A stretch of 64,000 nucleotides of DNA from Escherichia coli (lineage in GTDB: Bacteria; Pseudomonadota; Gammaproteobacteria; Enterobacterales; Enterobacteriaceae). Below are positions 11,875-48,821 of the stretch, piece after piece. The stretch is taken from NCBI RefSeq assembly GCF_003334255.1, contig NZ_QOWU01000010.1. One strand, given 5' to 3'. Made by a program: the position numbers and the translations under genes. The notes beneath the pieces are model-generated. The model was not told the DNA's origin and did not search any database. It worked only from the letters and a program-made list of their open reading frames with translations. The stretch's first letter is position 1; every line of letters begins with the position of its first letter.

Positions 11875-15115
<3,241 letters not shown>

Positions 15116-34115: not shown

Positions 34116-34139
34116 TTTTTCGTAAAGAGGGGGTAAAAC

Positions 34140-35743: not shown

Positions 35744-35932
35744 GTGTTAAGCACTGATCGGTTTATACGTGAAAAAGAATGCGAAAAGCTAACAGGCCTT
35801 AGCCGCTCATGCCGCTACCGCCTGGAAAAGGCCGGACAATTCCCATCACGTCGTAAACTTGGCGGTCGTTCCGTTGGCTGGTCTTTATCCGAGGTTCTGG
35901 CCTGGAAGGATAGCTGCAAGGCAGTTCATTAA
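35744..35932 (+). CDS. alpA: AlpA-family transcriptional regulator / excisionase-like HTH protein (62 aa, GTG start)
   Basis: LSTDRFIREKECEKLTGLSRSCRYRLEKAGQFPSRRKLGGRSVGWSLSEVLAWKDS fits the AlpA/Vis-type small HTH family; RBS AGGGGG 5 nt upstream. Confidence 0.75.
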   Translation: MLSTDRFIREKECEKLTGLSRSCRYRLEKAGQFPSRRKLGGRSVGWSLSEVLAWKDSCKAVH

Positions 35933-36432
35933 TCACGCTGGCGGCACACAGCCGCCACACATCAATCATCTGAACACAGAGCTATAACCATGAAGATTGA
36001 ATATACGCCAGAACGTGGGCGGGGATTCGTTCGCCCTGGTGAGACTGGAAAACCACAAAATTGGGGTTTTTCAGGCATAAAAAAAGCGGCCCCGAAATGG
36101 AGCCGCCTTTCTGAACAGATAACACGCTGCGCCGTTTGTGTGTGTGATCCCAAACATAAGCACGGGGATGATAGCCGCTATCAGGCTGGTGGGCAATGCA
36201 ATCAGTCTGGTTCAGTTCGTTGCCATACCTGCAATGAGCGCTTTTCCCTGTACTCTTTAAGGAATTGCTCAAGGGCAAAAGCACATGGCGCGAATCTTTC
36301 TGATTCATGCTCTATCTTTCTGCGCCGTCTTTTCCGTGCCGGTGATAATGTTTTGGTCAATTCTTTATCGGTCATTGTGTTGTCCTGCATAGCAATGCGC
36401 CGTAATACCTCACACCACGGCGCTGATAGTGA

Positions 36433-36738
36433 TTATTCTGATTCTTTGGCCTTGCGGCGCTGTAGTTCTTCACGAGCGATGGCGATAAGTTGCCCGAGTT
36501 CTTCCGTAGCTTTAATACCAATTTTTTCCACTTGCGCCAATGCATCGAGAGAAGAAATCAGAGGATTTTCACTGCTTCCTTCTGCCTGGCGGCGGGCGAT
36601 CTCCCCGCGCATGGCGGTTACTATGAATCCGGCGTTGCTTTCGCCGTCCAGTTTTACGGATTCCATGCCATCAAAAGCATCATGTGGGATACGAATTGAA
36701 ATCTGTTTTGATTTGTCGTTGATAGTGTTTTTTGCCAT
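36433..36738 (-). CDS. Hypothetical protein (101 aa), leftward-transcribed; candidate island regulator
   Basis: Start at Met 14 of the ORF, with AGGAGA RBS 7 nt upstream; the only clearly leftward gene in the island, divergent from the replication operon; function unknown. Confidence 0.5.
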   Translation of the reverse strand: MAKNTINDKSKQISIRIPHDAFDGMESVKLDGESNAGFIVTAMRGEIARRQAEGSSENPLISSLDALAQVEKIGIKATEELGQLIAIAREELQRRKAKESE

Positions 36739-36925
36739 GTGCATTCTCCTAAACAAAAGATGTGATTCAGTATACACAAAAAAGAATCACAAAAAACACT
36801 TGACCTGTGATTCAGTTGAATTTAATTTAAATCACACCTCAGTAAGAGGATGTAAACGACAACGCCCCGAACTGTTTGCGGCAGTAGCGGGGCGTCTAAC
36901 CAAACCGTTAACAGGAGTAACGATT

Positions 36926-37123
36926 ATGGCTGGAACACAGCATACCCCACGTCTGGCGCACACACAAACTGCCTTTGTGTGGCGTTTTCTGGCACTAAGT
37001 GCCGGAGAATCTCAAATCATCCACGTAACCGCCTGGACGGAACGCGAAGCGCGTAGCCGTTGCCCGTCCGGTTGTGTTGCTGTATTCGCCGCCCGTATTC
37101 GTCAGGGGGTGTGCCATGCCTGA
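36926..37123 (+). CDS. Small protein (65 aa), first gene of rightward operon; possibly Icd-like (function uncertain)
   Basis: ATG at 36926 preceded by AGGAG RBS (ACAGGAGTAACGATTATG); C-terminal part of the spurious long ORF 35990-37123; stop overlaps next gene start. Confidence 0.5.
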   Translation: MAGTQHTPRLAHTQTAFVWRFLALSAGESQIIHVTAWTEREARSRCPSGCVAVFAARIRQGVCHA

Positions 37124-37436
37124 CATGACCAATTACCAGTACCTGATTAATCCGCATTTTAACTGTGAGCATGATATTGCTAAAAAGGTTTATTCCGCTG
37201 CGGATGGGGCTACTGACAATATATCAATGGCTGTTTCGTCAATTGGTAGCCTGATGTGGTATGCGTCAGAAAATAAGGAATATGACGAAAAGGCCATGCG
37301 CATTGATATGGGTAATATTGGTTTGTTACTGGCAATGCTTGGACATTTTGATATTTCGTTACGGTGCACCATTGAAAATGCCACAGATGCATTAAATGCT
37401 ATAAAGAAAGCGAATACTGATTCAAATCGGGGATAA
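37116..37436 (+). CDS. Hypothetical protein (106 aa)
   Basis: ATG at 37116 overlapping the upstream stop (translational coupling); no recognisable motif. Confidence 0.5.
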   Translation: MPDMTNYQYLINPHFNCEHDIAKKVYSAADGATDNISMAVSSIGSLMWYASENKEYDEKAMRIDMGNIGLLLAMLGHFDISLRCTIENATDALNAIKKANTDSNRG

Positions 37437-37442
37437 ATAATC

Positions 37443-37742
37443 ATGAGAACGTATTTATCTGGCTTTACTGCCAGCGGTTATGCACACCCCAAAATTATCC
37501 CCGGCGCTATTTATCTGGATAAGAACGGTAACAGAGTAACGGTAAAAGAACTGATGTTTGACCGTGTGTATTTTATTCGTGATGGCTATTCATTTCATAG
37601 TTCGCTGAACGTGGAGATCTTTATTAGCAGATTCCGGCGGGAAATCCCGCTTTCCAGAAATAACCATGTGTCATGTATGGATGTTGATAAAAAACTACAG
37701 GAACTGAAAAACATGATTGCCGCGTGGAGAGAGCAGAAATGA
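37443..37742 (+). CDS. Hypothetical protein (99 aa)
   Basis: ORF directly upstream of and overlapping the primase gene start; no recognisable motif. Confidence 0.5.
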   Translation: MRTYLSGFTASGYAHPKIIPGAIYLDKNGNRVTVKELMFDRVYFIRDGYSFHSSLNVEIFISRFRREIPLSRNNHVSCMDVDKKLQELKNMIAAWREQK

Positions 37743-39556
37743 AAAAAGCGCCAAATTTAAAACACCAGCCGCGTGACAAAATGACGGAAGTCATCATTTT
37801 TGCGGGTAGTGATGCGTGGGCACATGCGAAGCAGTGGCAGGAACAGGACGGGCGACTGGCTGGCGATAACGTGCCACCTGTCTGGCTTGGAGAGCAACAA
37901 CTTGCCGAACTGGACAACCTGCAAATCGTACCGGACGGACGCTATCGCGTGCGTCTCTACCAGGCGGGGTTATTGCGTCCGGGGCTTGTTAATACCATCG
38001 GGCAGAAACTGGCAGCGGCAGGTGTCAGGGATGCTGATTATTACCCTGAAGGAATGCACAGCCAGAAACGGGAGAACTGGCGCGAATATCTGGAACGTGA
38101 GCGGGGAGAGCTGGCGGAAAAGAAAAAGGTAGTTGAACTGCCTGTAAAGAAAAAAGAGCGGGTAAAAGACGATAACGCTTCATCACTGGCGCTTAACCAG
38201 ATGGGAGCAAGTCAACGCGGCGAAGTTCTCCTGGCACATTATGGCGGTGAACTGGCGATTCATGCTGACTCTGACACTGTTCACTATTACAACGGCGTTG
38301 TATGGGAGCCAGTACAGGATAAAGAATTACAGCGAGCTATGGCGCAGATTTTCATTGATGCGGAGATCAGCTATTCGCAGAACGCCATTAAATCGGCGGT
38401 CGATACCATGAAGTTAAGTTTGCCTGTAATGGGGAATACAGCCCGTAACCTGATTGGATTCAGTAACGGTGTTTTTGATACCCGGACAGGCGATTTTCGG
38501 GAGCATAACAAAAACGACTGGTTGTTAATTGCCAGTGAATTACCTTTCAGCCCACCAGCAGAGGGGGAAACGCTGGCAACACATGCGCCGAATTTCTGGA
38601 AGTGGTTACGCCGTTCGGTGGCTGAGAATGACCGCAAGGCGGATCGCGTACTGGCTGCATTATTCATGGTGCTGGCGAACCGGTACGACTGGCAGTTATT
38701 CATTGAGGTAACAGGTCCAGGGGGAAGTGGTAAAAGCGTGATGGCGGAGATTTGCACCATGCTGGCGGGTAAGGCCAACACGGTATCGGCAAGCATGAAG
38801 GCGCTGGAAGATGCCAGGGAACGCGCGTTAGTGGTTGGCTTTTCGCTGATTATCATGCCGGATATGACCCGTTACGCTGGTGATGGCGCAGGAATTAAGG
38901 CCATTACAGGCGGTGACAAGGTGGCAATCGACCCGAAGCATAAAGCCCCCTACTCAACACGCATTCAGGCGGTAGTGTTGGCGGTGAACAATAACGCCAT
39001 GTCATTCAGTGACCGCAGCGGGGGGATTTCACGTCGTCGGGTGATATTCAATTTTTCGGAGGTTGTACCGGAAAACGAACGCGACCCCATGCTGGCAGAA
39101 AAAATAGAAGGAGAGCTGGCGGTTGTGATTCGCCACCTGCTTACTCGTTTTTCTGACCAGGACGCAGCTAAACGCCTGCTGTATGAGCAGCAGAAATCAG
39201 AAGAAGCTCTGGTGATAAAACGCGAGGGCGATTCGCTGGTGGACTTCTGCGGCTATCTCATGTCGTCGGTAATGTGTGATGGTCTGTTAGTGGGTAATGC
39301 CGAAATTATTCCGTTCAGTCCGCGCAGGTATCTTTATCACGCCTATCTGGCATATATGAGGGCACACGGATTCGGTAAACCTGTAACACTGACGCGCTTC
39401 GGTAAAGATATGCCGGGGGCAATGGCGGAATATGGCAGGGAGTATATGAAACGGAAAACGAAGCACGGTTTGCGTTCAAACGTGACACTGACGGAGGAAT
39501 CAGAAGACTGGATGCCATCATGTGTATCGGTCACTAATGACGATAGCAAAAATTAA
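37739..39556 (+). CDS. Primase / replication initiator with P4/D5-type NTPase domain (605 aa)
   Basis: Walker A VTGPGGSGKS and downstream Walker B-like hydrophobic-acidic stretch in the C-terminal half (P4-family primase C-terminal domain architecture); GGAGAG RBS before ATG 37739; followed by an iteron array. Confidence 0.75.
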   Translation: MKKAPNLKHQPRDKMTEVIIFAGSDAWAHAKQWQEQDGRLAGDNVPPVWLGEQQLAELDNLQIVPDGRYRVRLYQAGLLRPGLVNTIGQKLAAAGVRDADYYPEGMHSQKRENWREYLERERGELAEKKKVVELPVKKKERVKDDNASSLALNQMGASQRGEVLLAHYGGELAIHADSDTVHYYNGVVWEPVQDKELQRAMAQIFIDAEISYSQNAIKSAVDTMKLSLPVMGNTARNLIGFSNGVFDTRTGDFREHNKNDWLLIASELPFSPPAEGETLATHAPNFWKWLRRSVAENDRKADRVLAALFMVLANRYDWQLFIEVTGPGGSGKSVMAEICTMLAGKANTVSASMKALEDARERALVVGFSLIIMPDMTRYAGDGAGIKAITGGDKVAIDPKHKAPYSTRIQAVVLAVNNNAMSFSDRSGGISRRRVIFNFSEVVPENERDPMLAEKIEGELAVVIRHLLTRFSDQDAAKRLLYEQQKSEEALVIKREGDSLVDFCGYLMSSVMCDGLLVGNAEIIPFSPRRYLYHAYLAYMRAHGFGKPVTLTRFGKDMPGAMAEYGREYMKRKTKHGLRSNVTLTEESEDWMPSCVSVTNDDSKN

Positions 39557-39569
39557 ACTTATGGAATAA

Positions 39570-39792
39570 CTGTTCACCACTGTTCACCCTGTCATAAATA
39601 TCTTTTGTATCAGTATGTTATAGGGTGAACAGTTATTTATGAACTGTTCACCAAACTATTCACTGTTCACCTTTTTGATTGTTTATTGAGCTTCAAGGGT
39701 GAACAGTGGTGAATAGTTGGTGAATAGTTTTTGTGAAACTGTTCACCCCTTAACATTATGAATTAAAAGATAAAATATCAAAAGGTGAACAG
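39570..39792. repeat. Iteron array (at least 8 copies of CTGTTCACC / GGTGAACAG in both orientations): candidate island replication origin
   Basis: Copies at 39570, 39580, 39624(inv), 39644, 39663, 39698(inv), 39739, 39784(inv) plus GGTGAATAG variants at 39708 and 39718, in AT-rich DNA just after the primase gene. Confidence 0.65.
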
Positions 39793-39843
39793 GTGAAGGG
39801 TTAAAACGCAAAAATTTTAATTTACTGCTGTGAGATAAAGCCT

Positions 39844-40089
39844 ATGACAGCGAAGCACACAAAAAAATCACAATCGCACGCCCTTGATTTGACGGAACAC
39901 TGGTTAAGGGTGTCGATAAAAATCATCGACCGCAACGCCGGGGAAGGATATGCGAAAGCACATCCCGAACTGATTAGCTCATTCATGACAACGGCAGCTG
40001 CAAACTTTGCCACGCTGACAGAACGGGAGATTGCCGAAGCGGAACAGGTGACAACCATCAACGTTAAAACCGGAGAGCAGACAGCATGA
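39844..40089 (+). CDS. Hypothetical protein (81 aa)
   Basis: ORF immediately upstream of and overlapping the ssb start (ATGA overlap); weak RBS. Confidence 0.4.
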   Translation: MTAKHTKKSQSHALDLTEHWLRVSIKIIDRNAGEGYAKAHPELISSFMTTAAANFATLTEREIAEAEQVTTINVKTGEQTA

Positions 40090-40496
40090 CAGCACAGATA
40101 GCAGCTTACGGGCGGCTGGTGGACGACCCGCAGGTAAAACAGACCAGTAAGGGCACACCGATGACGCTGGCGCGTATGGCGGTATCGTTGCCATGTAGTC
40201 AGGCGCAGGATGGGCAGGCGACGTTATGGCTATCGGTCATCGCATTTGGTAAGCAGGCCGACTTCCTGGCTAAACATCAAAAAGGCGACGTTGCCAGCGT
40301 ATCCGGCACGATGCAGGTCAGCCAGTGGACCGGACAGAACGGGGAAACGCGGCAGGGTTATCAGGTTATTGCAGACAGCGTAATCAGTGCCCGTGCGGCA
40401 CGTCCTGGCGGGAACAGACGCAAAACCACAGGCACACAGGGTAATCAGCCACCAGCGGGAGGCGATGACCCTTACGGTGACGGTATTCCGTTCTGA
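40086..40496 (+). CDS. ssb: Single-stranded DNA-binding protein (136 aa)
   Basis: OB-fold-like N-terminal region, Gly/Pro/Gln-rich linker and acidic C-terminal tail ...DDPYGDGIPF, the hallmark SSB protein-interaction tail. Confidence 0.75.
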   Translation: MTAQIAAYGRLVDDPQVKQTSKGTPMTLARMAVSLPCSQAQDGQATLWLSVIAFGKQADFLAKHQKGDVASVSGTMQVSQWTGQNGETRQGYQVIADSVISARAARPGGNRRKTTGTQGNQPPAGGDDPYGDGIPF

Positions 40497-40506
40497 GGGG
40501 GTGGCG

Positions 40507-40779
40507 ATGGTACATGACCGCATAGCGGAAGAACTCGAGGCGAAAGGCTTTTACCGGAGGGCGGCGGCGCGATGGGGTGAAGTCATGCTGCTGGTGGAGA
40601 CAGACAAGGAACGGCATCAGGTTACGATGCGACGGCTGGAATGTTCCAGGAAGGCACAGAAGCCACCGGAGCCGCCGGATAACTTCGGAGACCTGAGAAA
40701 GGCAGTAGATCGCACTTATGCTGAAATGGGTATAGATGGTGTAAGCGATGAAATATGGCGTAATTACCCAGACAGCTAA
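40507..40779 (+). CDS. PerC-family-like small transcriptional activator (90 aa)
   Basis: MVHDRIAEELEAKGFYRRAAARWGEVM... resembles the conserved PerC motif (LEAxGxxRRAAxRW) as I remember it; GAGGGGG RBS. Confidence 0.5.
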   Translation: MVHDRIAEELEAKGFYRRAAARWGEVMLLVETDKERHQVTMRRLECSRKAQKPPEPPDNFGDLRKAVDRTYAEMGIDGVSDEIWRNYPDS

Positions 40780-40784
40780 TCAAC

Positions 40785-40808
40785 AGCCGGAGAAATCCGG
40801 CTTTTTTT
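40785..40808 (+). terminator. Intrinsic terminator
   Basis: AGCCGGAGAAATCCGGCT followed by TTTTTTT. Confidence 0.65.
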
Positions 40809-40903
40809 GCACCAGTTGAAACGGTATGGCGCATTACCGGGTTTTCGTCACGGTCAGGCATAGTTACTATCTGAAACAAACAGACACAACAGAGGAAAAA
40901 ACA

Positions 40904-41128
40904 ATGCCGATGAAATTTGATGAGATATTAAAACAGCGTGATAAATACCATGCTGACAACATGGAGACGATGAGCATCAATGATTACCGCGCATTCCTGG
41001 AGACGGGCGCACTGATTGAAAAGGATCAGCATGGTTTTGTGAGATGTGCTCTGTCCGGTGAAATGCTGGCGGTAAATCCTGAACAGATAGATGCATTGAT
41101 AGAATTTCTGAAAGGGATCAGGGACTGA
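40904..41128 (+). CDS. Hypothetical protein (74 aa)
   Basis: Start at internal Met with GAGGAAAAAACA-ATG RBS; followed by a terminator almost identical to the one at 40785. Confidence 0.45.
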   Translation: MPMKFDEILKQRDKYHADNMETMSINDYRAFLETGALIEKDQHGFVRCALSGEMLAVNPEQIDALIEFLKGIRD

Positions 41129-41138
41129 GCACGCATAC

Positions 41139-41160
41139 AGCCGGAGCAATCCGGCTTTTT
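41139..41160 (+). terminator. Intrinsic terminator (near-duplicate of 40785-40808)
   Basis: AGCCGGAGCAATCCGGCT followed by TTTTT. Confidence 0.65.
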
Positions 41161-41420
41161 GTCATTTTTTGTAAATTATTTGTTCGTGGTTGTTCCACGT
41201 TGTTCACTGACAGGATCGGCATATTTTACCCGAACTGAATCATGAGTATTCTCGCCCGTGGTGCCAGGACGCTGGGGCCACTTTCCCGCCTGTTAATGTG
41301 CTCGCCAATATTCATTACCAGGCGGGAAAACGATCGGTGCGATTGCTGATTTCCTTATGAAAAACGGTTGAGTTTTTGCCGCGTCCTGGAGTTCCTTACT
41401 TAACCCCAGGACTTTTTTTT

Positions 41421-42578
41421 ATGCCGAGAATAATCGAATTACGCCAGCAGAAAACCGCCATTAAAAATCAGATGCGCGACATGCTGGAGAACGCGGAAAA
41501 AGAAAACCGCAGCCTTAACGATGCAGAGGGCGCAAAATTTGACGAATTACGCGCTAAAGCTGAATCCCTCGATAAAGACATTTCCCGCCTTGAAGCCATT
41601 GCAGACGAAGAGCGCAGCAAGCCAGGTAAAAGCAGCCAGACCACTGACCCGGCAGAACTCCGCAACTACATCCTGACAGGTGAAACCCGCGCATTAAGTA
41701 CAGGCGTTCCCGCTGATGGTGGTTATACCGTTATCCCCGAACTGAACACCGAAATCATGCGAATGCTGACGGATGAATCCACCATGCGCCGCATCTGTAC
41801 CGTGAAGAAAATCAGCAGCAACGAGTTTAAGCAGCTTGTTTCCGCTGGCGGTGCGACCGTTAACCACGGTGAAGAGGGTAAGACACGCGAACAGACCAGC
41901 ACCCCGCAGATTAACGAGGTGAGCATTAAGCTGTATCCGGTCTATGCGTACCCGCGCACCACACAGGAAATCGTGGATTTTTCCGATGTGGACATCCTTT
42001 CATGGCTGACGGGTGAGATTGGCGACACCTTCACGGAAACCGAAGAAAGCGATCTGGTTGTGGGCGACGGTGACAAAAAAGCAAAAGGTTTTTTATCCGT
42101 ACCCCGTGCAGAGAAGAACGACAAAGAGCGTGATTTTGGTACGTTGCAGGTAATTAAACCTTCCGAATCTCTGGCGTGGACATCTGCGGACCCGCTGATC
42201 GACCTGAAATTTGCATTACGTAAAAAATACCGCAAAAACGCGGTCTGGGTGGTTAACTCCACGACGGCGGCAAAACTTCAGAAGGTGAAGAACGCGAACG
42301 GTGATTACATCTGGCGCGACCGTTTACAGGCGGGTGATCCTGATACGTTGCTGGGCCTTCCGGTCGAATATCTGGAGTTTATGCCTGATAACGTTATTGC
42401 CCTGGGTGACTTCAAACGCGGTTACTACATTGTTGATCACGAAACAGGTGTTCGCACCAGACCGGACAACCTCACAGAGCCGGGCTTCATCAAAATTTTC
42501 ACGCAGAAATATTTAGGCGGTGGCGTGGTGGATTCGAACGCGATCAAGATTCTGGAACTGCCACAGGACGACGATTAA
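41421..42578 (+). CDS. Major capsid protein, HK97 fold, with N-terminal coiled-coil scaffolding (delta) domain (385 aa from ATG 41421)
   Basis: N-terminal coiled-coil region (IELRQQKTAIKNQMRDMLENAEKENRSLNDAEGAKFDELRAKAESLDKDISRLEAIADEE) followed by a region typical of HK97-family capsid proteins; ORF track start 41376 is a TTG extension; strong terminator follows. Confidence 0.85.
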   Translation: MPRIIELRQQKTAIKNQMRDMLENAEKENRSLNDAEGAKFDELRAKAESLDKDISRLEAIADEERSKPGKSSQTTDPAELRNYILTGETRALSTGVPADGGYTVIPELNTEIMRMLTDESTMRRICTVKKISSNEFKQLVSAGGATVNHGEEGKTREQTSTPQINEVSIKLYPVYAYPRTTQEIVDFSDVDILSWLTGEIGDTFTETEESDLVVGDGDKKAKGFLSVPRAEKNDKERDFGTLQVIKPSESLAWTSADPLIDLKFALRKKYRKNAVWVVNSTTAAKLQKVKNANGDYIWRDRLQAGDPDTLLGLPVEYLEFMPDNVIALGDFKRGYYIVDHETGVRTRPDNLTEPGFIKIFTQKYLGGGVVDSNAIKILELPQDDD

Positions 42579-42590
42579 CAGCATACAGAA

Positions 42591-42620
42591 GGGGCTTAAA
42601 AGCCCCTTTAGTGTTTTATG
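42591..42620 (+). terminator. Intrinsic terminator after major capsid gene
   Basis: GGGGCTT-AA-AAGCCCC hairpin followed by a T-rich tract. Confidence 0.65.
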
Positions 42621-42632
42621 GGTGAAAAAATT

Positions 42633-43190
42633 ATGAAGAGTATGGAAATCCGGTCATCGGAAATCACCACCAGCGCCAGCAACACGCTTACAGGCTACGT
42701 TGTTCGCTGGGATAAGCTTTCAGAGCTGCTATGGGGGGAGTTTTACGAAAAATTCCAGCGGGGAGCGTTTACTGAATGGCTTGCGGCGGGTAATGACGTT
42801 CGCGGCCTGTATGAGCATGACCACAGCATGTTGCTGGGGCGTACCCGTTCCGGCACGCTGAAACTGGAAGAGGACGAAACAGGGTTACGCTTTGAACTGA
42901 CCCCACCGGATACCAGTACAGGGCGCGACGTTATCGAACTGGTTAAGCGTGGGGACATCTCGGGGATGAGCTTTGGCTTTCGCTCCCGTAAGGATGTATG
43001 GGATACCACAACAGATCCATGCGTGCGCACCGTGCTGGTGGCGGAACTGTACGAAATTACCGTTACATCGGTACCGGCTTACCCCGATTCCGGCGTGGAG
43101 CTGGCCCGCCGTTCCCTGTATGAGCAGCACCCCGAAAAAATGCCGCGTGCGGATAATCGCCGCTGGTGGGTGGATTTAGCGGGGGTGTGA
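42633..43190 (+). CDS. Prohead maturation protease, HK97 family (S78-like), about 186 aa
   Basis: Sequence typical of HK97-type prohead proteases (GYVVRWDKLS..., YEHDHSMLLGRTRSGTL, GDISGMSFGF); start ambiguous among ATG 42618/42633/42642. Confidence 0.8.
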   Translation: MKSMEIRSSEITTSASNTLTGYVVRWDKLSELLWGEFYEKFQRGAFTEWLAAGNDVRGLYEHDHSMLLGRTRSGTLKLEEDETGLRFELTPPDTSTGRDVIELVKRGDISGMSFGFRSRKDVWDTTTDPCVRTVLVAELYEITVTSVPAYPDSGVELARRSLYEQHPEKMPRADNRRWWVDLAGV

Positions 43191-43191
43191 T

Positions 43192-44403
43192 ATGTGGCTT
43201 TTCAGAAGAAAAAAAGAGCAGCGCAGCATGACGCTTGATGAATTTATGGCGCTGGCTGGCACATCGAACACGGGGGCGGGTGAGTACGTATCATCGGGGA
43301 CAGCGGAATCACTGCCCGCCGTCATGAACGCCGTGACGGTCATCTCTGAGGCGGTGGCTACCATGCCGTGTTACCTGTACCTGGTACGCAATGAGAAGGG
43401 GAAGGAGGCCCGCGAGTGGCTTGATTCTCATCCGGTCGATCACATCCTCAACGAGCGCCCGAACGCGTGGCAGACTCCCTACCAGTTTAAGCGAATGATG
43501 ATCCGCCACTGCCTGTTAAACGGTAATGCTTATGCGGTGATTCAGTGGGGGCGTGATGGTTTTCCGGTGGCTTTACATCCTTACCCGCCGCAGTCGGTGA
43601 ACGTGGAGCAGACAGGCGAACACAACTGGCGCTACTGCATCACTGACGCCTACACCGGAAACACCCGCAACTATTTACCGTGGGAGGTTCTCCACCTTCG
43701 TTACTCCACGGATGACGGTTTTATGGGGCGCTCACCTGTAACCATCTGCCGCGAATCGCTGGGGCTTGGGCTGGCCCAACAACGCCACGGCGCGAGCGTG
43801 ATGCGTGATGGCATGATGGCGGCAGGGGTTATCACGTCAGGCGAATGGCTGGACGGCGTGAAGGGCAAACAGGCATTAGCCGCACTGGAACGCTACAAAG
43901 GGGCCAGAAACGCCGGAAAAACGCCCATCCTTGAAGGGGGTATGAGCTATCAGCAGCTGGGCATGAGTAATCAGGATGCTGAATGGCTGGCCTCCCGTCG
44001 CTTCACCATTGAAGACATCGCCCGAATGTTCAACGTCTCGCCGATTTTTCTGCAGGAATACAGCAACAGCACCTACAGCAATTTCAGCGAGGCAAGCCGC
44101 GCATTTCTCACCATGACAATGCGCCCGTGGCTGGCGAACTTTGAGCAGCAGATAAAAAACGCCCTGCTGGTGGCCTCGCCTGTACCTGGTATCCGGTATC
44201 AGGTGGAGTTTGACAGCGCGGACCTGTTACGGGCCACACCTGGCGAACGCTTTGCCACCTATGAACGCGGCATCAAATCCGGCGTTATGTGCCCGAACGA
44301 AGCCCGCGAACGTGAAGGGCTGTCCCCGCGTGATGGTGGTGATGAGTTCAGCCAGGCATGGAAACAGGAAGTAAAAATCAGCGAGGGAGAAAAACCGGAA
44401 TGA
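43192..44403 (+). CDS. Portal protein, HK97 family (403 aa)
   Basis: Size, position and conserved portal-like core (…LLNGNAYAVIQWGRDG…, …ILEGGMSYQQLGMSNQDAEWL…); immediately follows the protease with 1-nt spacing. Confidence 0.8.
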   Translation: MWLFRRKKEQRSMTLDEFMALAGTSNTGAGEYVSSGTAESLPAVMNAVTVISEAVATMPCYLYLVRNEKGKEAREWLDSHPVDHILNERPNAWQTPYQFKRMMIRHCLLNGNAYAVIQWGRDGFPVALHPYPPQSVNVEQTGEHNWRYCITDAYTGNTRNYLPWEVLHLRYSTDDGFMGRSPVTICRESLGLGLAQQRHGASVMRDGMMAAGVITSGEWLDGVKGKQALAALERYKGARNAGKTPILEGGMSYQQLGMSNQDAEWLASRRFTIEDIARMFNVSPIFLQEYSNSTYSNFSEASRAFLTMTMRPWLANFEQQIKNALLVASPVPGIRYQVEFDSADLLRATPGERFATYERGIKSGVMCPNEAREREGLSPRDGGDEFSQAWKQEVKISEGEKPE

Positions 44404-44738
44404 ACATAGGGCGACTGCGTGACAGGGTAACGATTCAGACCCTGAAACAGACCAGGGATATAACCGGCGAAATACTCGAAACGTGGGAGGACGGTCACAC
44501 ACTCTGGGCAAGCGTGAACATGATCAGCAGCAAGGAGGCCATTTCATCGGGTGCAGAGCTGGCGATTGGTACCGTAAGGATCTGGATACGGTACCGGAAG
44601 GACATCAATGCCACCAGCCGGATAAAGGTCAGTACGGGGCCGCTGGCGGGGCGTGTACTGAATATCATCGGGCAGCCGCTGCCGGATGCCGCCAGGACAC
44701 GCCTTGAAATTCTTTGTCGTGAGGGCGCGGAAAAATGA
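44400..44738 (+). CDS. Head closure / head-tail adaptor protein (112 aa)
   Basis: MNIGRLRDRVTIQTLKQTRD... resembles the head-tail joining family; ATGA overlap with portal stop; GAGGGAGA RBS. Confidence 0.7.
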   Translation: MNIGRLRDRVTIQTLKQTRDITGEILETWEDGHTLWASVNMISSKEAISSGAELAIGTVRIWIRYRKDINATSRIKVSTGPLAGRVLNIIGQPLPDAARTRLEILCREGAEK

Positions 44739-45031
44739 CAGAAGAACTTATCACCCTGGAAGAAGTGAAACTCCATTGCCGCATCGATGGCGACGAGGAA
44801 GACCAGTTAATCAGCGGATACATCGCCGCATCGCTTGAGGCGTGCCAGATACACATAGGCAGGCGCTTTGATGACGGGCTGGAGTTCACGCCAGCCATAA
44901 AGATTGGCTGCATGATGTTTATCGCTCACCTGTATGAAAATCGCCAGATTGTCGCGGATAACGCAAAAACACGCGTACCCATGACGATTGGTGCACTCTG
45001 GACGGCTTACCGTGATGTGGGGGTGTACTGA
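44735..45031 (+). CDS. gp6-like head-tail connector protein (98 aa)
   Basis: MTEELITLEEVKLHCRIDGDEEDQLISGYIAASLEACQIHIG... resembles the gp6-like connector family N-terminus. Confidence 0.7.
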   Translation: MTEELITLEEVKLHCRIDGDEEDQLISGYIAASLEACQIHIGRRFDDGLEFTPAIKIGCMMFIAHLYENRQIVADNAKTRVPMTIGALWTAYRDVGVY

Positions 45032-45471
45032 TGCCGTGGCAACCATTAAGACGATGCACAGAACCAGGCTGTAACAGGCGCGTGAAGTCCGGCAAGTGTG
45101 AGGAGCACAGGCGGGCGGCATGGCGTGCAGAGGATGCCAGACGAGGACACCGCCGCGCGCGTGGGTACTCCAGACAGTGGGACAAATACCGCGCCATGTA
45201 TCTGAGTAAAAACCCGTTATGCGTGCGATGCCTTGAGAAGGGGATATATACGCCCGCCGTGGTGGTGGATCACATTATCCCGATTAATGGCGGTGATGAT
45301 GTTCTCTTCTGGCCCGAATGGAACCATCAGCCATTGTGCCAGGCGTGCCATAACCAGAAAACGAAATGGCTTGATCCGGCAACAAAAAGCAAGCGTGCCG
45401 CAGGTGGATTTCGTGAAGAGGAAGAACGGGCCGCTAACCGCAATAACTGGATGTATGACGCTGATGAATGA
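45031..45471 (+). CDS. HNH endonuclease (packaging-associated), 146 aa
   Basis: Cys pairs plus VVDHIIPINGGDD...NHQPLCQACHNQK (HNH motif); located immediately upstream of TerS as in HK97-like cos packaging modules. Confidence 0.85.
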   Translation: MPWQPLRRCTEPGCNRRVKSGKCEEHRRAAWRAEDARRGHRRARGYSRQWDKYRAMYLSKNPLCVRCLEKGIYTPAVVVDHIIPINGGDDVLFWPEWNHQPLCQACHNQKTKWLDPATKSKRAAGGFREEEERAANRNNWMYDADE

Positions 45472-45759
45472 GCGGGAACAAAACCGCCTTATCCGTGGAC
45501 TTATAAGGCAGCGTGACGCATGGAAGACACAGGAAACAGGGCATAAAGATAAAGCGTCAGGACGCGCAGAACGCATCACAGCGAAGCGATTAACCGACCG
45601 TGACCGCGAGGTTATGGAATGTTTCCGCAATCGCTGATGAGGCTGTATGACGGGGTGGGGGGCGTTTTCAGGACAAACCCGACCCCGCCGGGCACCGACC
45701 GCCTCCTCAAATTTTTATGCACGGGAATTTTTTGAAAAATAATCTGACGAAAAATAAGC

Positions 45760-46116
45760 ATGGCAAGACCACCGAAAGCCCCCGCCTACCTGGATGACAT
45801 CGCCGTGAAGCAGTGGCGGGAAAAATCGCGGCAGCTTGCGGAACGGGGAGACCTGACCCCCGCCGACTGGAGCAATCTGGAACTGTATTGTGTCAACTAC
45901 TCCATTTACCGGAAAGCCGTCGCAGACCTTGCGGCGCGCGGGTTCAGCATTGTTAACAGTCAGGGCGGCGAGAGCAGAAACCCCGCATTAAGCGCGAAAT
46001 CAGACGCTGAAAGGGTGATGATAAAAATGGCCTCCTTGCTCGGTTTTGACCCGATAAGCCGCCGTAAAAACCCACCGGAAACAGAAGAAGAGGACGAGCT
46101 TGACCGCCTGGAATAA
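45760..46116 (+). CDS. Terminase small subunit, P27 family (118 aa)
   Basis: Resembles P27-type TerS (AVKQWREKSRQLAERGDLTPADWSNLELYCVNYSIYRKA); overlaps TerL start. Confidence 0.8.
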   Translation: MARPPKAPAYLDDIAVKQWREKSRQLAERGDLTPADWSNLELYCVNYSIYRKAVADLAARGFSIVNSQGGESRNPALSAKSDAERVMIKMASLLGFDPISRRKNPPETEEEDELDRLE

Positions 46117-47761
46117 GTACGCAGAAGACGTAAAAACGGGCAAAATTCAGGCCTGTAAACGGTTAAAACAGGCCGTTAAACGGTACTTTTCGGACCTTAA
46201 AAGCCCCCTTTACACGTTCGATCGTGAGGTTGTGGATCGGTTTATTGCCTTTTCCAGGGTGTGCCCGCACGTAAAAGGGCCGATGCGTGGCAGACCCATT
46301 GAGCTGGAGCCGTGGCAGCAGTTCGCCTTTGCGTGCATCCTCGGCTTTAAGGTTAAGGCCACCGGACGGCGCAAATATACGAGCGCCTTTATCGAAGTGC
46401 CGCGCAAAAATGCTAAATCAACGACCGCCGCGATTCTGGCTAACTGGTTTCTGATTATGGAGAACGGTCAGCAGGATATTTACACCGCAGCGGTGAGCCG
46501 TGACCAGGCGAGGATCGTATTTGATGATGCGCGTCAGATGTGCATTTTATCCCGACCGTTACGCAGGCGGGTGAATATTCAGGCGCATAAGGTGATACAC
46601 CCGAAAACCAACAGCCTGTTAAAGCCGCTGGCAGCAAAAGCGGCAACTATCGAGGGCACAAACCCCAGTCTTTCTATCGTGGACGAATACCACCTACACC
46701 CCGACAACGGCGTATATTCTGCGCTTGAACTGGGGATGGGGGCACGTCCCGAAGGGCTGTTATTTGCCATTACCACATCGGGAAGTAACGTCGTTTCAGC
46801 CTGTAAGCAGCATTATGATTATTGCTGCCAGATCCTGGACGGCGAAGAGGTTAACGAATCGCTTTTTGTGCTGATTTACGAACTGGACGACGAAAACGAG
46901 GTTGATGATCCGGAGATGTGGATAAAGGCGAACCCTAATATCGATGTTTCCGTGGATCGTGAAAAACTGGCCTCAACCATTCAGAAAGCGCGGGGTATTC
47001 CGTCGCAATGGGTGGAGATGATGACAAAGCGATTTAATATCTGGTGTCAGGGGACTACCCCGTGGATGGGTAATGGTGCATGGGCTGAGTGTGCCGGAAC
47101 GTTCACGGAGGAAGATTTACACGGTCAGGAGTGTTACGCGGGGCTGGACTTATCATCAACCAGCGATATTTCCAGCGTGTGCTATGCCTTTCCGGTCGGT
47201 AAAACCATTATGATGATTTCCCGTCATTATCTGCCGGAGTTCCAGCTACAGAACCCCGCCAATAAAAACCGCGCTGTCTATCGTCAGTGGGCTAAAGCAG
47301 GCTGGATACGCACAACGCCTGGCGACTGCATTGATTACGACCGGATCAGAGATGACATCATGCAGGACGCGGAGAAATTTAATATCAGGCTGGTGGGCTT
47401 TGATACGTGGAACGCCACGCATCTCAGAACGCAATTACAGGGGGCAGGTTTTGAGGTGGAGCCGTTCCCGCAAACCTACCTCAGATTCAGTCCGGCGGCG
47501 AAATCGTTCGAAGTTTTTGTTAACCGCAGGGTGATTGTGCATCGTGGCGATCCGGTGTTGTCCTGGTCGATGAGTAACGTCGTGATGCAGAGTGACGCGA
47601 ACGCCAATATCAAGCCGAACAAGAAAAAATCACCGAACAAGATAGACCCGAGCGTGGCGGCGCTGATGGCGTTTGGTACATTCCAGGCAGAGCATGAGGA
47701 TTTTGCTTTTGATATAAGCGACAGCCACCGCCAGAAACTGGAAGAATTTAGCGGGGTGTAA
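46100..47761 (+). CDS. Terminase large subunit (553 aa; apparent TTG start)
   Basis: ATPase and nuclease domains in typical TerL arrangement; no in-frame ATG/GTG near the 5' end, TTG at 46100 preceded by GAGGA. Confidence 0.85.
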   Translation: MTAWNKYAEDVKTGKIQACKRLKQAVKRYFSDLKSPLYTFDREVVDRFIAFSRVCPHVKGPMRGRPIELEPWQQFAFACILGFKVKATGRRKYTSAFIEVPRKNAKSTTAAILANWFLIMENGQQDIYTAAVSRDQARIVFDDARQMCILSRPLRRRVNIQAHKVIHPKTNSLLKPLAAKAATIEGTNPSLSIVDEYHLHPDNGVYSALELGMGARPEGLLFAITTSGSNVVSACKQHYDYCCQILDGEEVNESLFVLIYELDDENEVDDPEMWIKANPNIDVSVDREKLASTIQKARGIPSQWVEMMTKRFNIWCQGTTPWMGNGAWAECAGTFTEEDLHGQECYAGLDLSSTSDISSVCYAFPVGKTIMMISRHYLPEFQLQNPANKNRAVYRQWAKAGWIRTTPGDCIDYDRIRDDIMQDAEKFNIRLVGFDTWNATHLRTQLQGAGFEVEPFPQTYLRFSPAAKSFEVFVNRRVIVHRGDPVLSWSMSNVVMQSDANANIKPNKKKSPNKIDPSVAALMAFGTFQAEHEDFAFDISDSHRQKLEEFSGV

Positions 47762-47774
47762 TGAGGTCAGCAGC

Positions 47775-48056
47775 ATGACAGAAGCCGAAATAACGGGATT
47801 AATCCGCCGCGTTGCCGGAATCAGCCAGCAGGCTGACGAACAGGCCACGCAGCCGGACAGCGTGACAGCCGAAAACTATGCGCGTGTTGTTGCTGAGGTG
47901 ATGCGCCGTGATGGTATAGAACTTAATGGCGTGGATATGCGCAACATACGAACCAGAGTTCTTGAGTTGCTGGCCTACCGTCGCCGCGTGGAGATGTATC
48001 GGGAGAAGGAGAAAATAACGTACCACTGGAAGAAGCCGGAGCGGTTGCGGCGGTAA
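47775..48056 (+). CDS. Hypothetical protein (93 aa), last gene of island
   Basis: ATG 47775 with GAGG RBS 8 nt upstream; no recognisable motif. Confidence 0.5.
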   Translation: MTEAEITGLIRRVAGISQQADEQATQPDSVTAENYARVVAEVMRRDGIELNGVDMRNIRTRVLELLAYRRRVEMYREKEKITYHWKKPERLRR

Positions 48057-48349
48057 CTGGTTGATATTCCCGACGGACCAAAAATGGGTGGCTACATCCC
48101 TCGCTTCTGAGGACTGTTAACAAGCTGCCTGAAAGACAGTCACAAACTACGAAATTTTCGCAGTTTAATTAATGATCAGCTTAATCGCTAACCCGCTGAT
48201 ATTTTCGGAAACCTCAATTTGAGGAAGTCGGCGCGGTAACTCGCTGAACTTTAAGCAAAGTGCAAAATTGCGCTTGCTGAATAATCATTATGATTACGCA
48301 GATGATTAAGGAATGACCGAAGGCGGAAATTCGCCTGTGGTTAATGGGG

Positions 48350-48462
48350 GAGTTGCAGATCTGCAACTCGACCATGAAACTACGGAAACTACCCGTAGTT
48401 TGGGTAGTAAGAGTAACACCCAGATTTTGGGTCTTACTCGTGATACCCAAATTTGGGGTATC
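48350..48462. repeat. Cluster of perfect and near-perfect palindromes in the island right arm
   Basis: Perfect 20-bp palindrome GAGTTGCAGATCTGCAACTC (48350-48369); AAACTACGG/CCGTAGTTT stem (48376-48400); nested AGTAAGA...ACCCA...TGGGT...TCTTACT (48406-48439); GATACCCAAATTTGGGGTATC (48442-48462). Confidence 0.6.
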
Positions 48463-48724
48463 AGTGGCAACCATAACGACTTTCGTTACGGTTGATGCTT
48501 TTACCCCATTGGGGGAAAGGTATTACGATAATCATAACACCTACCGAACAGGTAAAGCCCACCAGCCTGATTAACGTTTAACCGGAAAAAAATTCCGGTA
48601 GGTGGGGATCCCCATATCGACATTAACGCCCCTCATGAATTGGTGCGCTTCCCCCTGGAAAGATGATCCGCCTGTATATTTCTTGTGTCTATTTGTTCCA
48701 CGTTGTTTCATACAGTGCACCGAA

Positions 48725-48747
48725 CGGTGTAGTCACTGGTGTAGTCA
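48725..48747 (+). repeat. Tandem 10-bp repeat GGTGTAGTCA x2 (second copy of candidate arm-type site)
   Basis: CGGTGTAGTCACTGGTGTAGTCA, same orientation as 34092-34115; preceded by TTGTTCCACGTTGTT, which recurs at 41190. Confidence 0.5.
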
Positions 48748-48821
48748 TTTTGCGATTTTTGGCACTTTTTGCGGTGAAAATTATTTAATTAAATCAACGT
48801 GTTATGTGAAATAAGTTATAT

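What the first reader, a model, noticed from the sequence alone, without database searches (positions are those of the whole stretch)
48320..48615. Dense cluster of palindromes in the right arm of the island
Within about 300 bp after the last ORF there are a perfect 20-bp palindrome (GAGTTGCAGATCTGCAACTC), a 9-bp-stem hairpin (AAACTACGG...CCGTAGTTT), a nested stem (AGTAAGA...ACCCA...TGGGT...TCTTACT), GATACCCAAATTTGGGGTATC, a near-palindrome ACCGGAAAAAAATTCCGGT and GGGGATCCCC. Such density is unusual for a simple intergenic region. It could be a structured regulatory RNA, a set of operator sites in the attP arm, or a packaging-related site.
Basis: seen in the sequence. Interest (0 to 1): 0.55.

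Follow-up and report, generated by a model that had tools for sequence, protein, structure and literature searches.

The report
Hairpin-cassette array in a phage satellite's arm
The palindrome cluster is real and belongs to an apparently undescribed non-coding array of hairpin cassettes that ends many E. coli phage satellites (PICIs); it is not their packaging site or an integrase site, and its function is still unproven.

Summary
All six palindromes are present at the stated coordinates. The 670-bp arm holds 11 perfect stems of at least 6 bp, against 1.4±1.2 in shuffles, which is the densest stretch in the 64-kb window.

The "island" is a capsid-forming PICI (EcCIEDL933-like, 34092-48747) inserted in tqsA. 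The arm lies between its last ORF, here called ORF93 (93 aa, 47775-48056, phrog_1561), and attR. The arm has three parts:
- **Box+hairpin units.** Three ~48-nt units sit at 48051, 48186 and 48234. Each has a conserved box matching the IHF consensus, followed by a hairpin whose stem varies between units but stays self-complementary. Copy number is 0-8 in related satellites.
- **Module D (48345-48467).** This 123-bp four-hairpin cassette occurs in 706 of 5426 complete E. coli genomes. In every context inspected it lies in a PICI right arm.
- **Integrase-proximal part.** It contains a Chi site and two further palindromes.

Module D occurs next to unrelated integrases, replicases and packaging modules. 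It is missing from 12 of 20 satellites whose TerL is 95.9-99.5% identical to this island's TerL. It is therefore neither cos nor an integrase arm site. There is no Rfam match, promoter, terminator, coding signal or phage homologue.

My best reading, at low confidence, is a satellite-private REP/BIME-like element at the 3' end of the late operon.

The parts
34092..48747 (+). The island: a capsid-forming PICI (EcCIEDL933-like). Genes in order: int, alpA-type HTH, icd-like, DUF4222, P4-type primase, ori, SSB, PerC, capsid, protease, portal, connectors, HNH, terS, terL, ORF93. It is bounded by a 23-bp direct repeat, CGGTGTAGTCACTGGTGTAGTCA, at 34092-34114 and 48725-48747.
   Evidence: Direct repeat. 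RefSeq annotation of a genome identical over the arm. cf-PICI description: bioRxiv 10.1101/2022.09.08.507074.
47775..48056 (+). ORF93, the last ORF of the late operon (93 aa, phrog_1561, function unknown). Its stop codon lies inside the first repeat box.
   Evidence: no match in Pfam, PADLOC or NCBIfam. The AF2 model has three helices at pLDDT 72 and no fold match.
48051..48091 (+). Box+hairpin unit 1. The box is CGGTAACTGGTTGATATTCCCGA. An exact IHF consensus, TATCAACCAGTTA, lies on the - strand at 48054-48066. The hairpin here is degenerate (CCAaaaaTGG); in relatives it is GGCCCAaaaaTGGGTT.
   Evidence: (D1).
48144..48166 (.). Palindrome AAACTACGaaattttCGCAGTTT. It uses the same half-site as hairpin 2 of module D. 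The surrounding block 48145-48231 recurs on its own in other PICI remnants.
   Evidence: D11; H75-H77.
48186..48233 (+). Box+hairpin unit 2. The box is CGCTAACCCGCTGATATTTTCGGAAA, with an exact IHF consensus at 48189-48201 (- strand). The hairpin is CCTCAAtTTGAGG at 48212-48224.
48234..48281 (+). Box+hairpin unit 3. The box is CGGTAACTCGCTGAACTTTAAGCAA. The hairpin is AAGTGCAAaaTTGCGCTT at 48258-48275.
48282..48296 (.). Palindrome TAATCATtATGATTA. A related palindrome, GGTCATAATGACC, occurs in other arms.
48345..48467 (+). Module D, a facultative 123-bp four-hairpin cassette that forms the core of the finding. Hairpin 1 is 48350-48369, hairpin 2 is 48377-48401, hairpin 3 is 48402-48448, and the alternative hairpin 4 is 48442-48462. 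It also reads as four copies of AAACTAC/GTAGT at 9-nt spacing, arranged as two direct then two inverted.
   Evidence: The boundaries come from BLAST blocks. Alignments. Fold. No coding signal.
48469..48493 (.). Hairpin AACCATAACGActtTCGTTACGGTT. It is also found in arms that lack module D.
   Evidence: (I2).
48504..48514 (.). Hairpin CCCCattGGGG.
   Evidence: The same hairpin appears as a unit hairpin in other arms.
48559..48566 (-). Chi octamer (CCACCAGC on the + strand). It is nearly universal at this position in PICI right arms.
48581..48614 (.). Integrase-proximal palindromes: ACCGGAAaaaaaTTCCGGT and TGGGGATCCCCA. The motif GGGGATCC(C/A)CATA(T/A)CG recurs in arms with other integrases.
48673..48707 (+). 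TTGTTC-repeat element, 77% identical to 41170-41204, which lies upstream of the capsid operon. I infer it is an activator or promoter element that would drive int in the circular form.
   Evidence: (D1).

Best explanation
**What is there (shown).** The cluster is the middle of a satellite-specific non-coding arm built from shuffled hairpin cassettes. The arm starts at the stop codon of the last late gene and runs to attR.

- It begins with a tandem array of ~46-50-nt units, each made of a conserved box followed by a hairpin. The box is GGCGCGGTAACyNGYTGATATTnnCGrAAA, and its core is the reverse complement of the IHF consensus WATCARNNNNTTR. The hairpin stem differs from unit to unit but stays perfectly self-complementary. 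The unit is often followed by TGGCTGGTGG, which contains a Chi or Chi-like sequence.
- Module D (48345-48467) is an optional four-hairpin cassette inserted in this array.

**How it most likely works (inferred).** The array acts in cis, in the way REP/BIME elements do at the 3' ends of chromosomal operons.

- When the late operon is transcribed after induction, the + strand RNA would fold into a row of stable stem-loops. These would protect the 3' end of the late mRNA from exonucleases. They would also separate late transcription from attP and int, which lie downstream in the excised circle, and from host DNA in the integrated state.
- On the DNA, the boxes would bind IHF and bend the arm.
- Module D would add to this function but is not needed for excision, replication or packaging.
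For: **Position and orientation**
- The first box overlaps the ORF93 stop codon in every arm, and all units are co-oriented with the late operon.
- No sigma-70 promoter and no intrinsic terminator separates ORF93 from the arm, so read-through is expected.

**Selection on pairing rather than on sequence**
- 78% of 106 distinct unit variable parts hold a perfect stem of at least 5 bp, against 10±3% after shuffling. There are 34 different 5' arms.
- The same architecture follows a 45%-identical ORF93 relative.
- In module D the loops vary while the stems hold. The hairpin 1 centre is GATC, GATT, AATT or AATC. The hairpin 4 loop varies, and its stem shows two compensated variants, GATCCCC/GGGGATC and GACACCC/GGGTGTC.

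**Physical plausibility**
- Stems of 5-11 GC-rich bp are stable as RNA. Fold z-scores are -8.5 and -11.3.

**IHF boxes**
- There are 10 exact matches to the IHF consensus in the 64-kb window, and 3 of them lie within 48054-48804.
- The conserved positions of the box are the specified positions of the consensus.

**Independence from the satellite's own enzymes**
- Module D is found with unrelated integrases.
- It is found with primase, DUF927 or RepA replicases.
- It is found with different packaging modules.

**Variable copy number**
- 0-8 units per arm, as in BIME arrays.
Against: - No transcript data were available.
- Covariation inside module D is not significant: one compensated pair, and the shuffles do as well.
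- The unit hairpins contain almost no G·U pairs, and wobble changes show no strand bias. That fits a DNA-level palindrome at least as well as an RNA.
- The hairpins lack U-tracts, and terminator-like sites are not enriched.
- IHF binding rests on a consensus match only.
- Positions that the IHF consensus leaves free are also conserved in the box, so something else may read it.
- Many satellites with ORF93 have 0-1 units, so the array is dispensable.
Confidence: 0.35

Rival explanations
1. DNA-level architectural array. IHF bound at each box, together with the A/T-centred palindromes, would fold the arm into a compact nucleoprotein structure. That structure would serve recombination at attP, replication or DNA condensation. 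The palindromes would act as DNA, either as sites for a dimeric or structure-specific protein or as hairpins in single-stranded intermediates. The satellite encodes its own SSB.
For: - The palindromes are almost perfect Watson-Crick, with only 2 G·T among about 50 distinct hairpins, and show no strand bias.
- The boxes match the IHF consensus.
- The arm is the long arm of attP.
- Module D contains four copies of AAACTAC at 9-bp spacing, arranged as two direct then two inverted. The same half-site recurs at 48144.
- No promoter or terminator was found.
Against: - Stem sequences differ widely within a single array, which does not fit one sequence-specific protein.
- Arms of 5-6 bp are too short for stable cruciforms (established knowledge).
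- The array is shared by unrelated integrases and replicases.
- The array lies 250-700 bp from the core, and its copy number varies from 0 to 8.
Confidence: 0.25
2. Selfish or neutral repeats. The units and module D would be small repeats that spread and shuffle by recombination within satellite right arms, an accessory hot spot. Like many REP or MITE copies, they would have no function for the satellite.
For: - Presence or absence of module D is unrelated to any other module.
- Copy number ranges from 0 to 8.
- Block boundaries are sharp and the arms are mosaic.
- Some arms hold two copies of module D about 434 nt apart.
- Many satellites lack the units.
Against: - Neutral palindromes should decay, yet 78% of distinct units keep perfect stems across 34 different stem sequences.
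- The architecture persists downstream of a 45%-identical ORF93 relative.
- The repeats never appeared outside PICI arms in any context inspected, nor in phages.
- Module D has no terminal inverted repeats or target duplications.
Confidence: 0.17
3. Trans-acting non-coding cargo. Module D, the array, or both would be transcribed on induction and act on the helper phage or the host. One version is a decoy of stem-loops for an RNA-binding protein, for example boxB-like hairpins titrating a lambdoid N-type antiterminator. Another is a sponge or regulatory RNA.
For: - Module D behaves like an optional cargo cassette in the arm where PICIs carry accessory genes, such as an abortive-infection gene in L004.
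- Each unit resembles a nut site in layout: a conserved ~19-nt box, a spacer, then a 5-bp GC stem with an A-rich loop (the comparison is from memory).
- The fold is very stable.
Against: - No Rfam family matches.
- No own promoter or terminator lies within the conserved block, and its flanks differ between contexts.
- The loops are AAAA or AAAU rather than the GNRA-like loops of known boxB (memory).
- There is no covariation support.
Confidence: 0.1
4. Recombination and end-protection module. Repeated boxes plus Chi or Chi-like octamers would make the arm a RecBCD-controlled hot spot. It would protect concatemer or injected DNA ends and promote exchange of arm cassettes between satellites.
For: - Chi density is 1.76 per kb in 41 distinct arms and about 1 per kb across the island.
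- Chi orientation flips exactly at the arm: 43 in the - orientation against 7 in the + orientation in arms, compared with 36 + and 1 - in the 2.5 kb of coding DNA upstream.
- Chi or Chi-like TGGCTGGTGG directly follows many unit hairpins and precedes module D in other satellites.
- The arms are mosaic.
Against: - This island's own units are not followed by a perfect Chi, and its only arm Chi is at 48559.
- The model explains Chi but not why hairpins are conserved.
- Helper lambdoid phages usually supply Gam (for example in L001).
Confidence: 0.08

Closest known systems
REP/BIME elements of enterobacteria, especially BIME-1 (RIB/RIP: palindromic units flanking an IHF site)
   Same: - Extragenic short GC-rich palindromes placed right after the stop codon at the 3' end of a transcription unit.
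- Arranged in arrays of variable copy number.
- Interleaved with an IHF-consensus site.
- Function is thought to be mixed: mRNA 3'-end protection as RNA, and IHF or gyrase binding as DNA. This description of REP/BIME is from my own knowledge of Boccard & Prentki 1993 and Oppenheim et al. 1993.
   Different: - No sequence similarity to REP.
- In every context inspected the repeats lie in the right arms of phage satellites, not dispersed over the chromosome.
- The palindromic part is hypervariable while the box is conserved, which is the opposite of REP.
- Units are all in one orientation rather than alternating.
Correia repeat-enclosed elements of Neisseria (MITE-like, with an IHF site; transcripts form RNase III hairpins)
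   Same: A small non-coding repeat that combines inverted repeats with an IHF site and could affect transcript ends (own knowledge).
   Different: - No terminal inverted repeats or target duplications.
- No dispersal around the genome.
- Organised as a tandem array.
Lambda attP P arm and the sib retroregulator
   Same: - Non-coding DNA on the int-distal side of attP that carries IHF sites.
- In lambda this DNA includes a hairpin (sib) whose effect on int depends on whether the element is integrated or excised.
- Here int starts 26 nt from the core, so the arm is joined upstream of int only in the circle.
   Different: - The array lies upstream of int, not downstream.
- It is shared by unrelated integrases.
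- It lies up to 700 bp from the core.
- It is facultative.
cos sites: lambda cosQ-cosN-cosB with IHF site I1, and HK97-type cos next to HNH/terS
   Same: A perfect 20-bp palindrome and IHF-consensus sites superficially recall cosN and cosB.
   Different: - No lambda cosN motif in the arm.
- The true cosN lies elsewhere in a classical PICI that carries module D.
- Module D is absent from 12 of 20 loci whose TerL is 95.9-99.5% identical to this island's TerL.
- The canonical HK97-type position is the GC-rich gap 45637-45760, between HNH and terS (inference).
Lambdoid nut sites (boxA + boxB)
   Same: A conserved linear box, a short spacer, then a 5-bp GC stem with an A-rich loop, on the transcribed strand.
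   Different: - The box is not the boxA consensus, and the loops are not GNRA-like (memory).
- The units are repeated up to 8 times at the end of an operon rather than at its start.
- No Rfam or sequence match.

Membership tests
cos / pac packaging site | Co-occurs with, and is specific to, the cognate terminase | tested here: not met
   Among loci whose TerL is 95.9-99.5% identical to this island's TerL, 8 have module D and 12 lack it. Among loci with other packaging modules the split is 8 and 18.
cos / pac packaging site | Contains or adjoins the nicking site next to terS (lambda-type cosN GGGCGGCGACCT, or the HNH-terS gap in HK97-type phages) | tested here: not met
   There is no cosN-like match in the arm. 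In PICI L003, cosN is at 10731, upstream of the terS-like gene, while module D is at 12001.
Integrase arm-type / attP operator sites | The sequence tracks the integrase family and lies within about 250 bp of the core | tested here: not met
   Module D is 94% identical next to an integrase with only 23% identity over 74 aa. It lies 260-380 bp from the core here and is facultative. This was not tested for 48581-48614, which may still qualify.
Known structured RNA family (Rfam 15) | Covariance-model match at the gathering score | tested here: not met
   There are no matches in the window at gathering score. Only chance-level hits appear at E up to 10. There are none in five related arms.
Structured RNA in general | Compensatory base changes beyond phylogenetic expectation | tested here: inconclusive
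   Inside module D there is 1 compensated pair, and the shuffles do as well. Across paralogous units, 34 different self-complementary stems occupy the same position. That supports pairing but does not say whether the pairing is in RNA or DNA.
Intrinsic (Rho-independent) terminators | A GC-rich hairpin followed by a U-tract | tested here: not met
   Terminator-like sites are not enriched in the arm or in unit-rich arms: 2-3 found against 1.2-1.5 expected.
REP/BIME (RIB/RIP) | Extragenic palindromes at the 3' end of operons, in arrays of variable copy number | tested here: met
   The first unit overlaps the ORF93 stop codon, and arms hold 0-8 co-oriented units.
REP/BIME (RIB/RIP) | An IHF binding site between the palindromic units | tested here: inconclusive
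   Exact consensus matches lie at 48054 and 48189, and the conserved box positions coincide with the consensus. Binding itself cannot be tested with these tools.
REP/BIME (RIB/RIP) | REP consensus sequence and dispersal over hundreds of chromosomal intergenic sites | tested here: not met
   Every inspected context in E. coli genomes is a PICI right arm or a remnant of one. There is no similarity to REP. I therefore call it REP/BIME-like, not a member.
Protein-coding small ORF | An open frame conserved across copies, with third-position or synonymous bias | tested here: not met
   One frame on the - strand is open in all 26 variants. However, substitutions fall 9:9:7 over the three codon positions, and there are 7 synonymous against 18 non-synonymous changes, no better than the other frames. 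The start codon would lie in non-conserved flanks.
Type III toxin-antitoxin RNA repeats (ToxI-like) | Near-identical tandem RNA repeats next to a ToxN-type endoribonuclease gene | tested here: not met
   The units are variable. The neighbouring ORF93 has no PADLOC, Pfam or NCBIfam match, and no such gene is present in any context.

The most novel reading that the evidence does not exclude
The array could be an evolved anti-helper or anti-host device rather than a passive 3'-end element. In this reading it is a tandem library of different stem-loops, each preceded by a common loading box. The library would be transcribed only when the satellite is induced. It would titrate RNA- or DNA-hairpin-binding factors of diverse lambdoid helpers, for example N-type antiterminators. 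Alternatively, working together with the flanking Chi sites, it would control RecBCD at satellite DNA ends. Module D would then be an exchangeable "specificity cassette".
Probability: 0.07. Interest if true: 0.8.

Novelty: new variant of a known kind. Interest (0 to 1): 0.45.

Why it matters
PICIs and cf-PICIs are intensively studied, yet the papers I could read describe only their genes, ori and cos. None mentions this arm.

A conserved, modular array of IHF-box+hairpin units occurs in roughly a quarter of complete E. coli genomes: 1326 of 5426 carry some part of this arm, and 706 carry module D. An array that common would be a new cis element of satellite biology. It offers a handle on three questions:
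- how late transcription, int expression and DNA-end protection are organised in the excised form;
- how satellite right arms, where defence and virulence cargo sits, are shuffled;
- how to mark satellite right ends in annotation, since the array is diagnostic of them.

If it turns out to be only a REP-like stabiliser or a selfish repeat, the interest is modest.

Tried and rejected
**Hypotheses tested and rejected**
- **Known RNA family.** Rfam gathering and permissive scans of the window and five related arms found nothing.
- **tRNA or tmRNA.** None found.
- **cos site.** Rejected on the motif search and on distribution.
- **P4-type crr second replication site.** The ori iterons TGTTCACC do not occur in the arm.
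- **Homology to phages.** Neither module D nor a 486-nt unit array has a meaningful match in 50,697 phage records.
- **Small protein.** No coding signature.

**Searches that gave little or nothing**
- **Genome-contig scan with an invariant 16-mer.** All 63 hits fell in taxonomically unrelated genomes and none in enterobacteria, at about the number expected by chance. No representative genome of another species carries that exact 16-mer.
- **ORF93 as a clue.** It has no Pfam, NCBIfam or PADLOC match, and its family is narrow, with 36 clusters at 50% identity. The AF2 model has three helices at pLDDT 72 and no PDB fold match.
- **Strand assignment from G·U wobble.** Too few events and no bias.
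- **Tandem terminators on either strand.** Not enriched.
- **Literature.** A search for the palindrome sequence, and for PICI together with IHF, Chi, hairpin or palindrome, found nothing on this region.
Full report
**1. The observation**

Their coordinates are 48350-48369, 48377-48401, 48406-48439 (nested within 48402-48448), 48442-48462, 48581-48599 and 48604-48613.

Counting perfect inverted repeats with stems of at least 6 bp and loops of at most 9 nt gives 11 in the non-coding stretch 48057-48725. Five hundred dinucleotide shuffles gave 1.4±1.2, with a maximum of 7. No other 670-nt stretch of the 64-kb window comes close: the best-placed frame holds 13, against a window mean of 1.7.

Folded as a single strand, 48340-48515 has z = -8.5 on the + strand and -11.3 on the - strand. 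The only correction is that the palindrome-rich zone begins at the stop codon of the last ORF (48056), not at 48320.

**2. Context**

The window is E. coli chromosome. A region identical over the arm is annotated in many complete genomes.

The "island" is bounded by a 23-bp direct repeat at 34092 and 48725 and interrupts tqsA. Its genes run in this order:
- int, an alpA-type HTH gene, an icd-like gene, DUF4222;
- a P4-type primase followed by an ori with TGTTCACC iterons;
- SSB and PerC;
- major capsid, protease, portal, head closure, connector, HNH, TerS (P27 family) and TerL;
- a 93-aa ORF (47775-48056), here called ORF93.

This is the organisation of the capsid-forming PICIs, whose prototype is EcCIEDL933 (bioRxiv 10.1101/2022.09.08.507074). 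The finding therefore lies in the ~670-bp non-coding right arm between the last late gene and attR.

**3. The arm is modular**

BLAST against 5426 complete E. coli genomes shows that pieces of the arm recur independently.

Its distribution is as follows:
- It is present in 706 genomes, in up to 6 places per genome, at 75-100% identity.
- It is absent from 50,697 phage records.
- It occurs in three "plasmid" records. One is only 10.8 kb, a size consistent with an excised satellite; I did not inspect these records.

Every context I inspected is the right arm of a PICI or of a PICI remnant, always downstream of an ORF93 homologue. Everything else around it differs:
- **Integration sites:** tqsA, tRNA-Ile, thiM, a prophage capsid gene, the clpS region.
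- **Integrases:** one shares only 23% identity over 74 aa with this island's integrase.
- **Replicases:** primase, DUF927 or RepA helicase.
- **Packaging modules:** cf-PICI type, lambda-type TerS-like, or a protease-capsid fusion.

**4. What this excludes**

In the classical PICI L003 the lambda-like cosN lies upstream of the terS-like gene, 1.2 kb from module D. The arm of the present island has no cosN-like sequence.

Among IMG/VR loci with enough downstream DNA, module D is present in 8 and absent in 12 of the 20 that encode a TerL 95.9-99.5% identical to this one. Among loci with other packaging modules the split is 8 present and 18 absent.

Module D is therefore not a packaging site, and it is not needed by the cf-PICI machinery. 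By position, the canonical cos of an HNH/TerS/TerL system would be the GC-rich gap 45637-45760 (inference). Because module D is shared by unrelated integrases and is optional, it is not an integrase arm site either.

It is also not a protein gene. One frame on the - strand is open in all 26 variants. However, substitutions are spread 9:9:7 over the three codon positions, with 7 synonymous against 18 non-synonymous changes, no better than any other frame.

No Rfam family matches the window or five related arms. No sigma-70 promoter or intrinsic terminator lies within the arm.

**5. The repeat units**

Reading the arms of about 75 distinct relatives showed what the single window hides. The arm starts with a tandem array of 0-8 units of ~46-50 nt.

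Each unit has a conserved box, GGCGCGGTAACyNGYTGATATTnnCGrAAA. The first copy contains the ORF93 stop codon. A short hairpin follows the box.

The hairpin is the notable part. Across 106 distinct units, 78% carry a perfect stem of at least 5 bp, against 10±3% after shuffling. Those stems use 34 different 5' arm sequences. Examples are GCGCAAaaTTGCGC, AGCTCAAaaTTGAGCT, CCTCAattTGAGG, CGACCTCCTCAattTGAGGAGGTCG, TTCGCCagcGGCGAA and CCAAAGCTCAttttTGAGCTTTGG.

The same layout follows an ORF93 relative of only 45% identity.

In this window the units start at 48051, 48186 and 48234 (family D1).

The core of the box is the reverse complement of the IHF consensus WATCARNNNNTTR. The window has 10 exact matches to that consensus in 64 kb, and 3 of them lie within 48054-48804.

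Many units in other arms are followed by TGGCTGGTGG, which contains Chi or a near-Chi sequence.

**6. Structure of module D**

An alignment of 26 distinct variants keeps 93.8% of cells paired in the four-hairpin model. Covariation is not significant, with one compensated pair and shuffles that do as well. The copies are simply too similar to one another.

Qualitatively, the loops vary while the stems hold:
- The centre of hairpin 1 is GATC, GATT, AATT or AATC.
- The hairpin 4 loop varies freely.
- The hairpin 4 stem has two compensated variants, in L178 and L189.

Hairpin 2 can also be read as four copies of AAACTAC at 9-nt spacing, arranged as two direct then two inverted. Some variants lack one copy through a 9-nt deletion. 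The same half-site forms another palindrome at 48144.

Wobble-type single changes show no strand preference, and the unit hairpins have almost no G·U pairs.

**7. Mechanism**

*Shown:* the anatomy, the restriction to satellite arms in every context inspected, independence from integrase, replicase and terminase, dispensability, and selection for self-complementarity.

*Inferred:* the function. I commit, at about 0.35, to a REP/BIME-like cis element at the 3' end of the late operon, for four reasons:
- The array begins at the stop codon and is always co-oriented with the operon.
- Nothing terminates transcription before it.
- GC-rich stems of 5-11 bp are stable as RNA but too short for cruciforms.
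- Interleaving with IHF-consensus boxes mirrors the BIME-1/RIP elements of the chromosome.

A second consideration makes an insulating function plausible. The int start codon (34140) is only 26 nt from the attL core. In the excised circle the right arm is therefore the only upstream region of int. A TTGTTC-repeat element next to the core (48673-48707) resembles the one upstream of the capsid operon (41170-41204). The hairpin array thus sits between the late operon and the int control region.

The main rival, at about 0.25, is a purely DNA-level IHF-organised structure. The near-perfect Watson-Crick palindromes favour it. The remaining rivals are:
- a selfish or neutral repeat (0.17);
- a trans-acting RNA cargo or decoy (0.10);
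- a Chi-linked recombination and end-protection module (0.08).

**8. Comparison with known systems and novelty**

The closest analogues are REP/BIME-1 (RIB/RIP) elements and, more loosely, Correia elements, the lambda P arm with sib, and nut sites.

The array fails the membership tests for REP (no sequence similarity, no chromosomal dispersal), for cos, for integrase arm sites, for Rfam families and for intrinsic terminators.

I found no description of it in the PICI or cf-PICI literature that I could search and read.

I rate it a new variant of a known kind: repetitive extragenic palindromes with IHF sites, here private to phage satellites and with an inverted conservation pattern (conserved box, hypervariable stem). 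Interest is moderate at 0.45. The structure is solid and widespread, but its function is unproven and may be mundane.

Noticed in passing
window 34092-48747; Chi(+) at 35024, 36185, 39235, 40115, 40590, 43034, 43162, 44166, 47389; Chi(-) at 38552, 40449, 42667, 44611, 48559: The island carries 14 Chi octamers in 14.7 kb, about 1 per kb. From my own knowledge, the E. coli average is about 0.2 per kb. In 41 distinct related right arms there are 43 Chi(-) and 7 Chi(+). The 2.5 kb of coding DNA just upstream has 36 Chi(+) and 1 Chi(-). Chi orientation therefore flips at the arm. The exact 16-mer TATCAGGCTGGTGGGC occurs at 36179 and 47383, and inverted at 48557.
   Followed up: partly
window 39570-39800: The satellite ori lies directly after the primase gene. 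It holds many copies of the P4-type iteron (C)TGTTCACC/GGTGAACA in both orientations, plus one exact IHF consensus at 39608.
   Followed up: no
window 34115-34140 and 48673-48707 / 41170-41204: The int start codon (GTG at 34140) is only 26 nt from the attL core, so int can have no promoter of its own inside the integrated island. A TTGTTC-repeat element next to the attR core is 77% identical to one upstream of the capsid operon. This suggests that int is co-regulated with the late genes only in the excised circle.
   Followed up: partly
window 33964-34091 and 48748-48814: Between the annotated tqsA fragments and the att cores lie 128 and 67 nt that belong to neither. The left piece..TTGTTCCAGCTTGTTTCACGTTGT.., resembles the island's own core-proximal arm. 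It may be a scar of an earlier satellite or an extended att identity block.
   Followed up: no
window 45637-45760: A GC-rich non-coding gap (GGGGTGGGGGGCG...CCCGACCCCGCCGGGC) lies between the HNH-adjacent ORF and terS. By analogy with HK97-type phages it is the likely cos of this cf-PICI.
   Followed up: no
window 40783-40806 and 41137-41160: Two near-identical strong terminator-like hairpins (ACAGCCGGAGnAATCCGGCTTTTT), 354 nt apart, flank the small ORF upstream of the capsid operon (D6).
   Followed up: no
L154, L178, L202, L204 (IMG/VR): Some satellites carry two copies of module D about 434 nt apart in the same arm. In L177 and in the second copy of L204, module D is truncated after TTTTGGG, where unrelated sequence begins.
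   Followed up: no
L151:1390-1416: A 26-nt near-copy of hairpin 1 (GCGAGTTGCAAATTTGCAACTCGACC) lies inside the coding sequence of an SRAP/YedK-like gene next to an integrase in a 49.7-kb viral contig. It encodes ..RVANLQLD... This may be a chance match or the source of the palindrome.
   Followed up: partly
window 47775-48056 (ORF93): The last late ORF belongs to a very narrow family: 36 clusters at 50% identity among 1.8 billion representatives. It has an invariant C-terminus, W-KKPERLRR, whose codons form part of the first repeat box. No function could be assigned.
   Followed up: yes
window 48725-48747: The att core is itself an internal tandem repeat, GGTGTAGTCA twice at a 12-nt offset (D14). 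This may correspond to the "doubled DNA sequence motif" reported for attP of a related integrase clade (10.1101/2022.07.18.500453).
   Followed up: no
L217:6727-6791: The flank of the most distant ORF93-bearing satellite contains the sRNA STnc290 (Rfam RF01403, 100.9 bits). This suggests that the locus comes from Salmonella or a close relative, and so that the unit array is not limited to E. coli.
   Followed up: no
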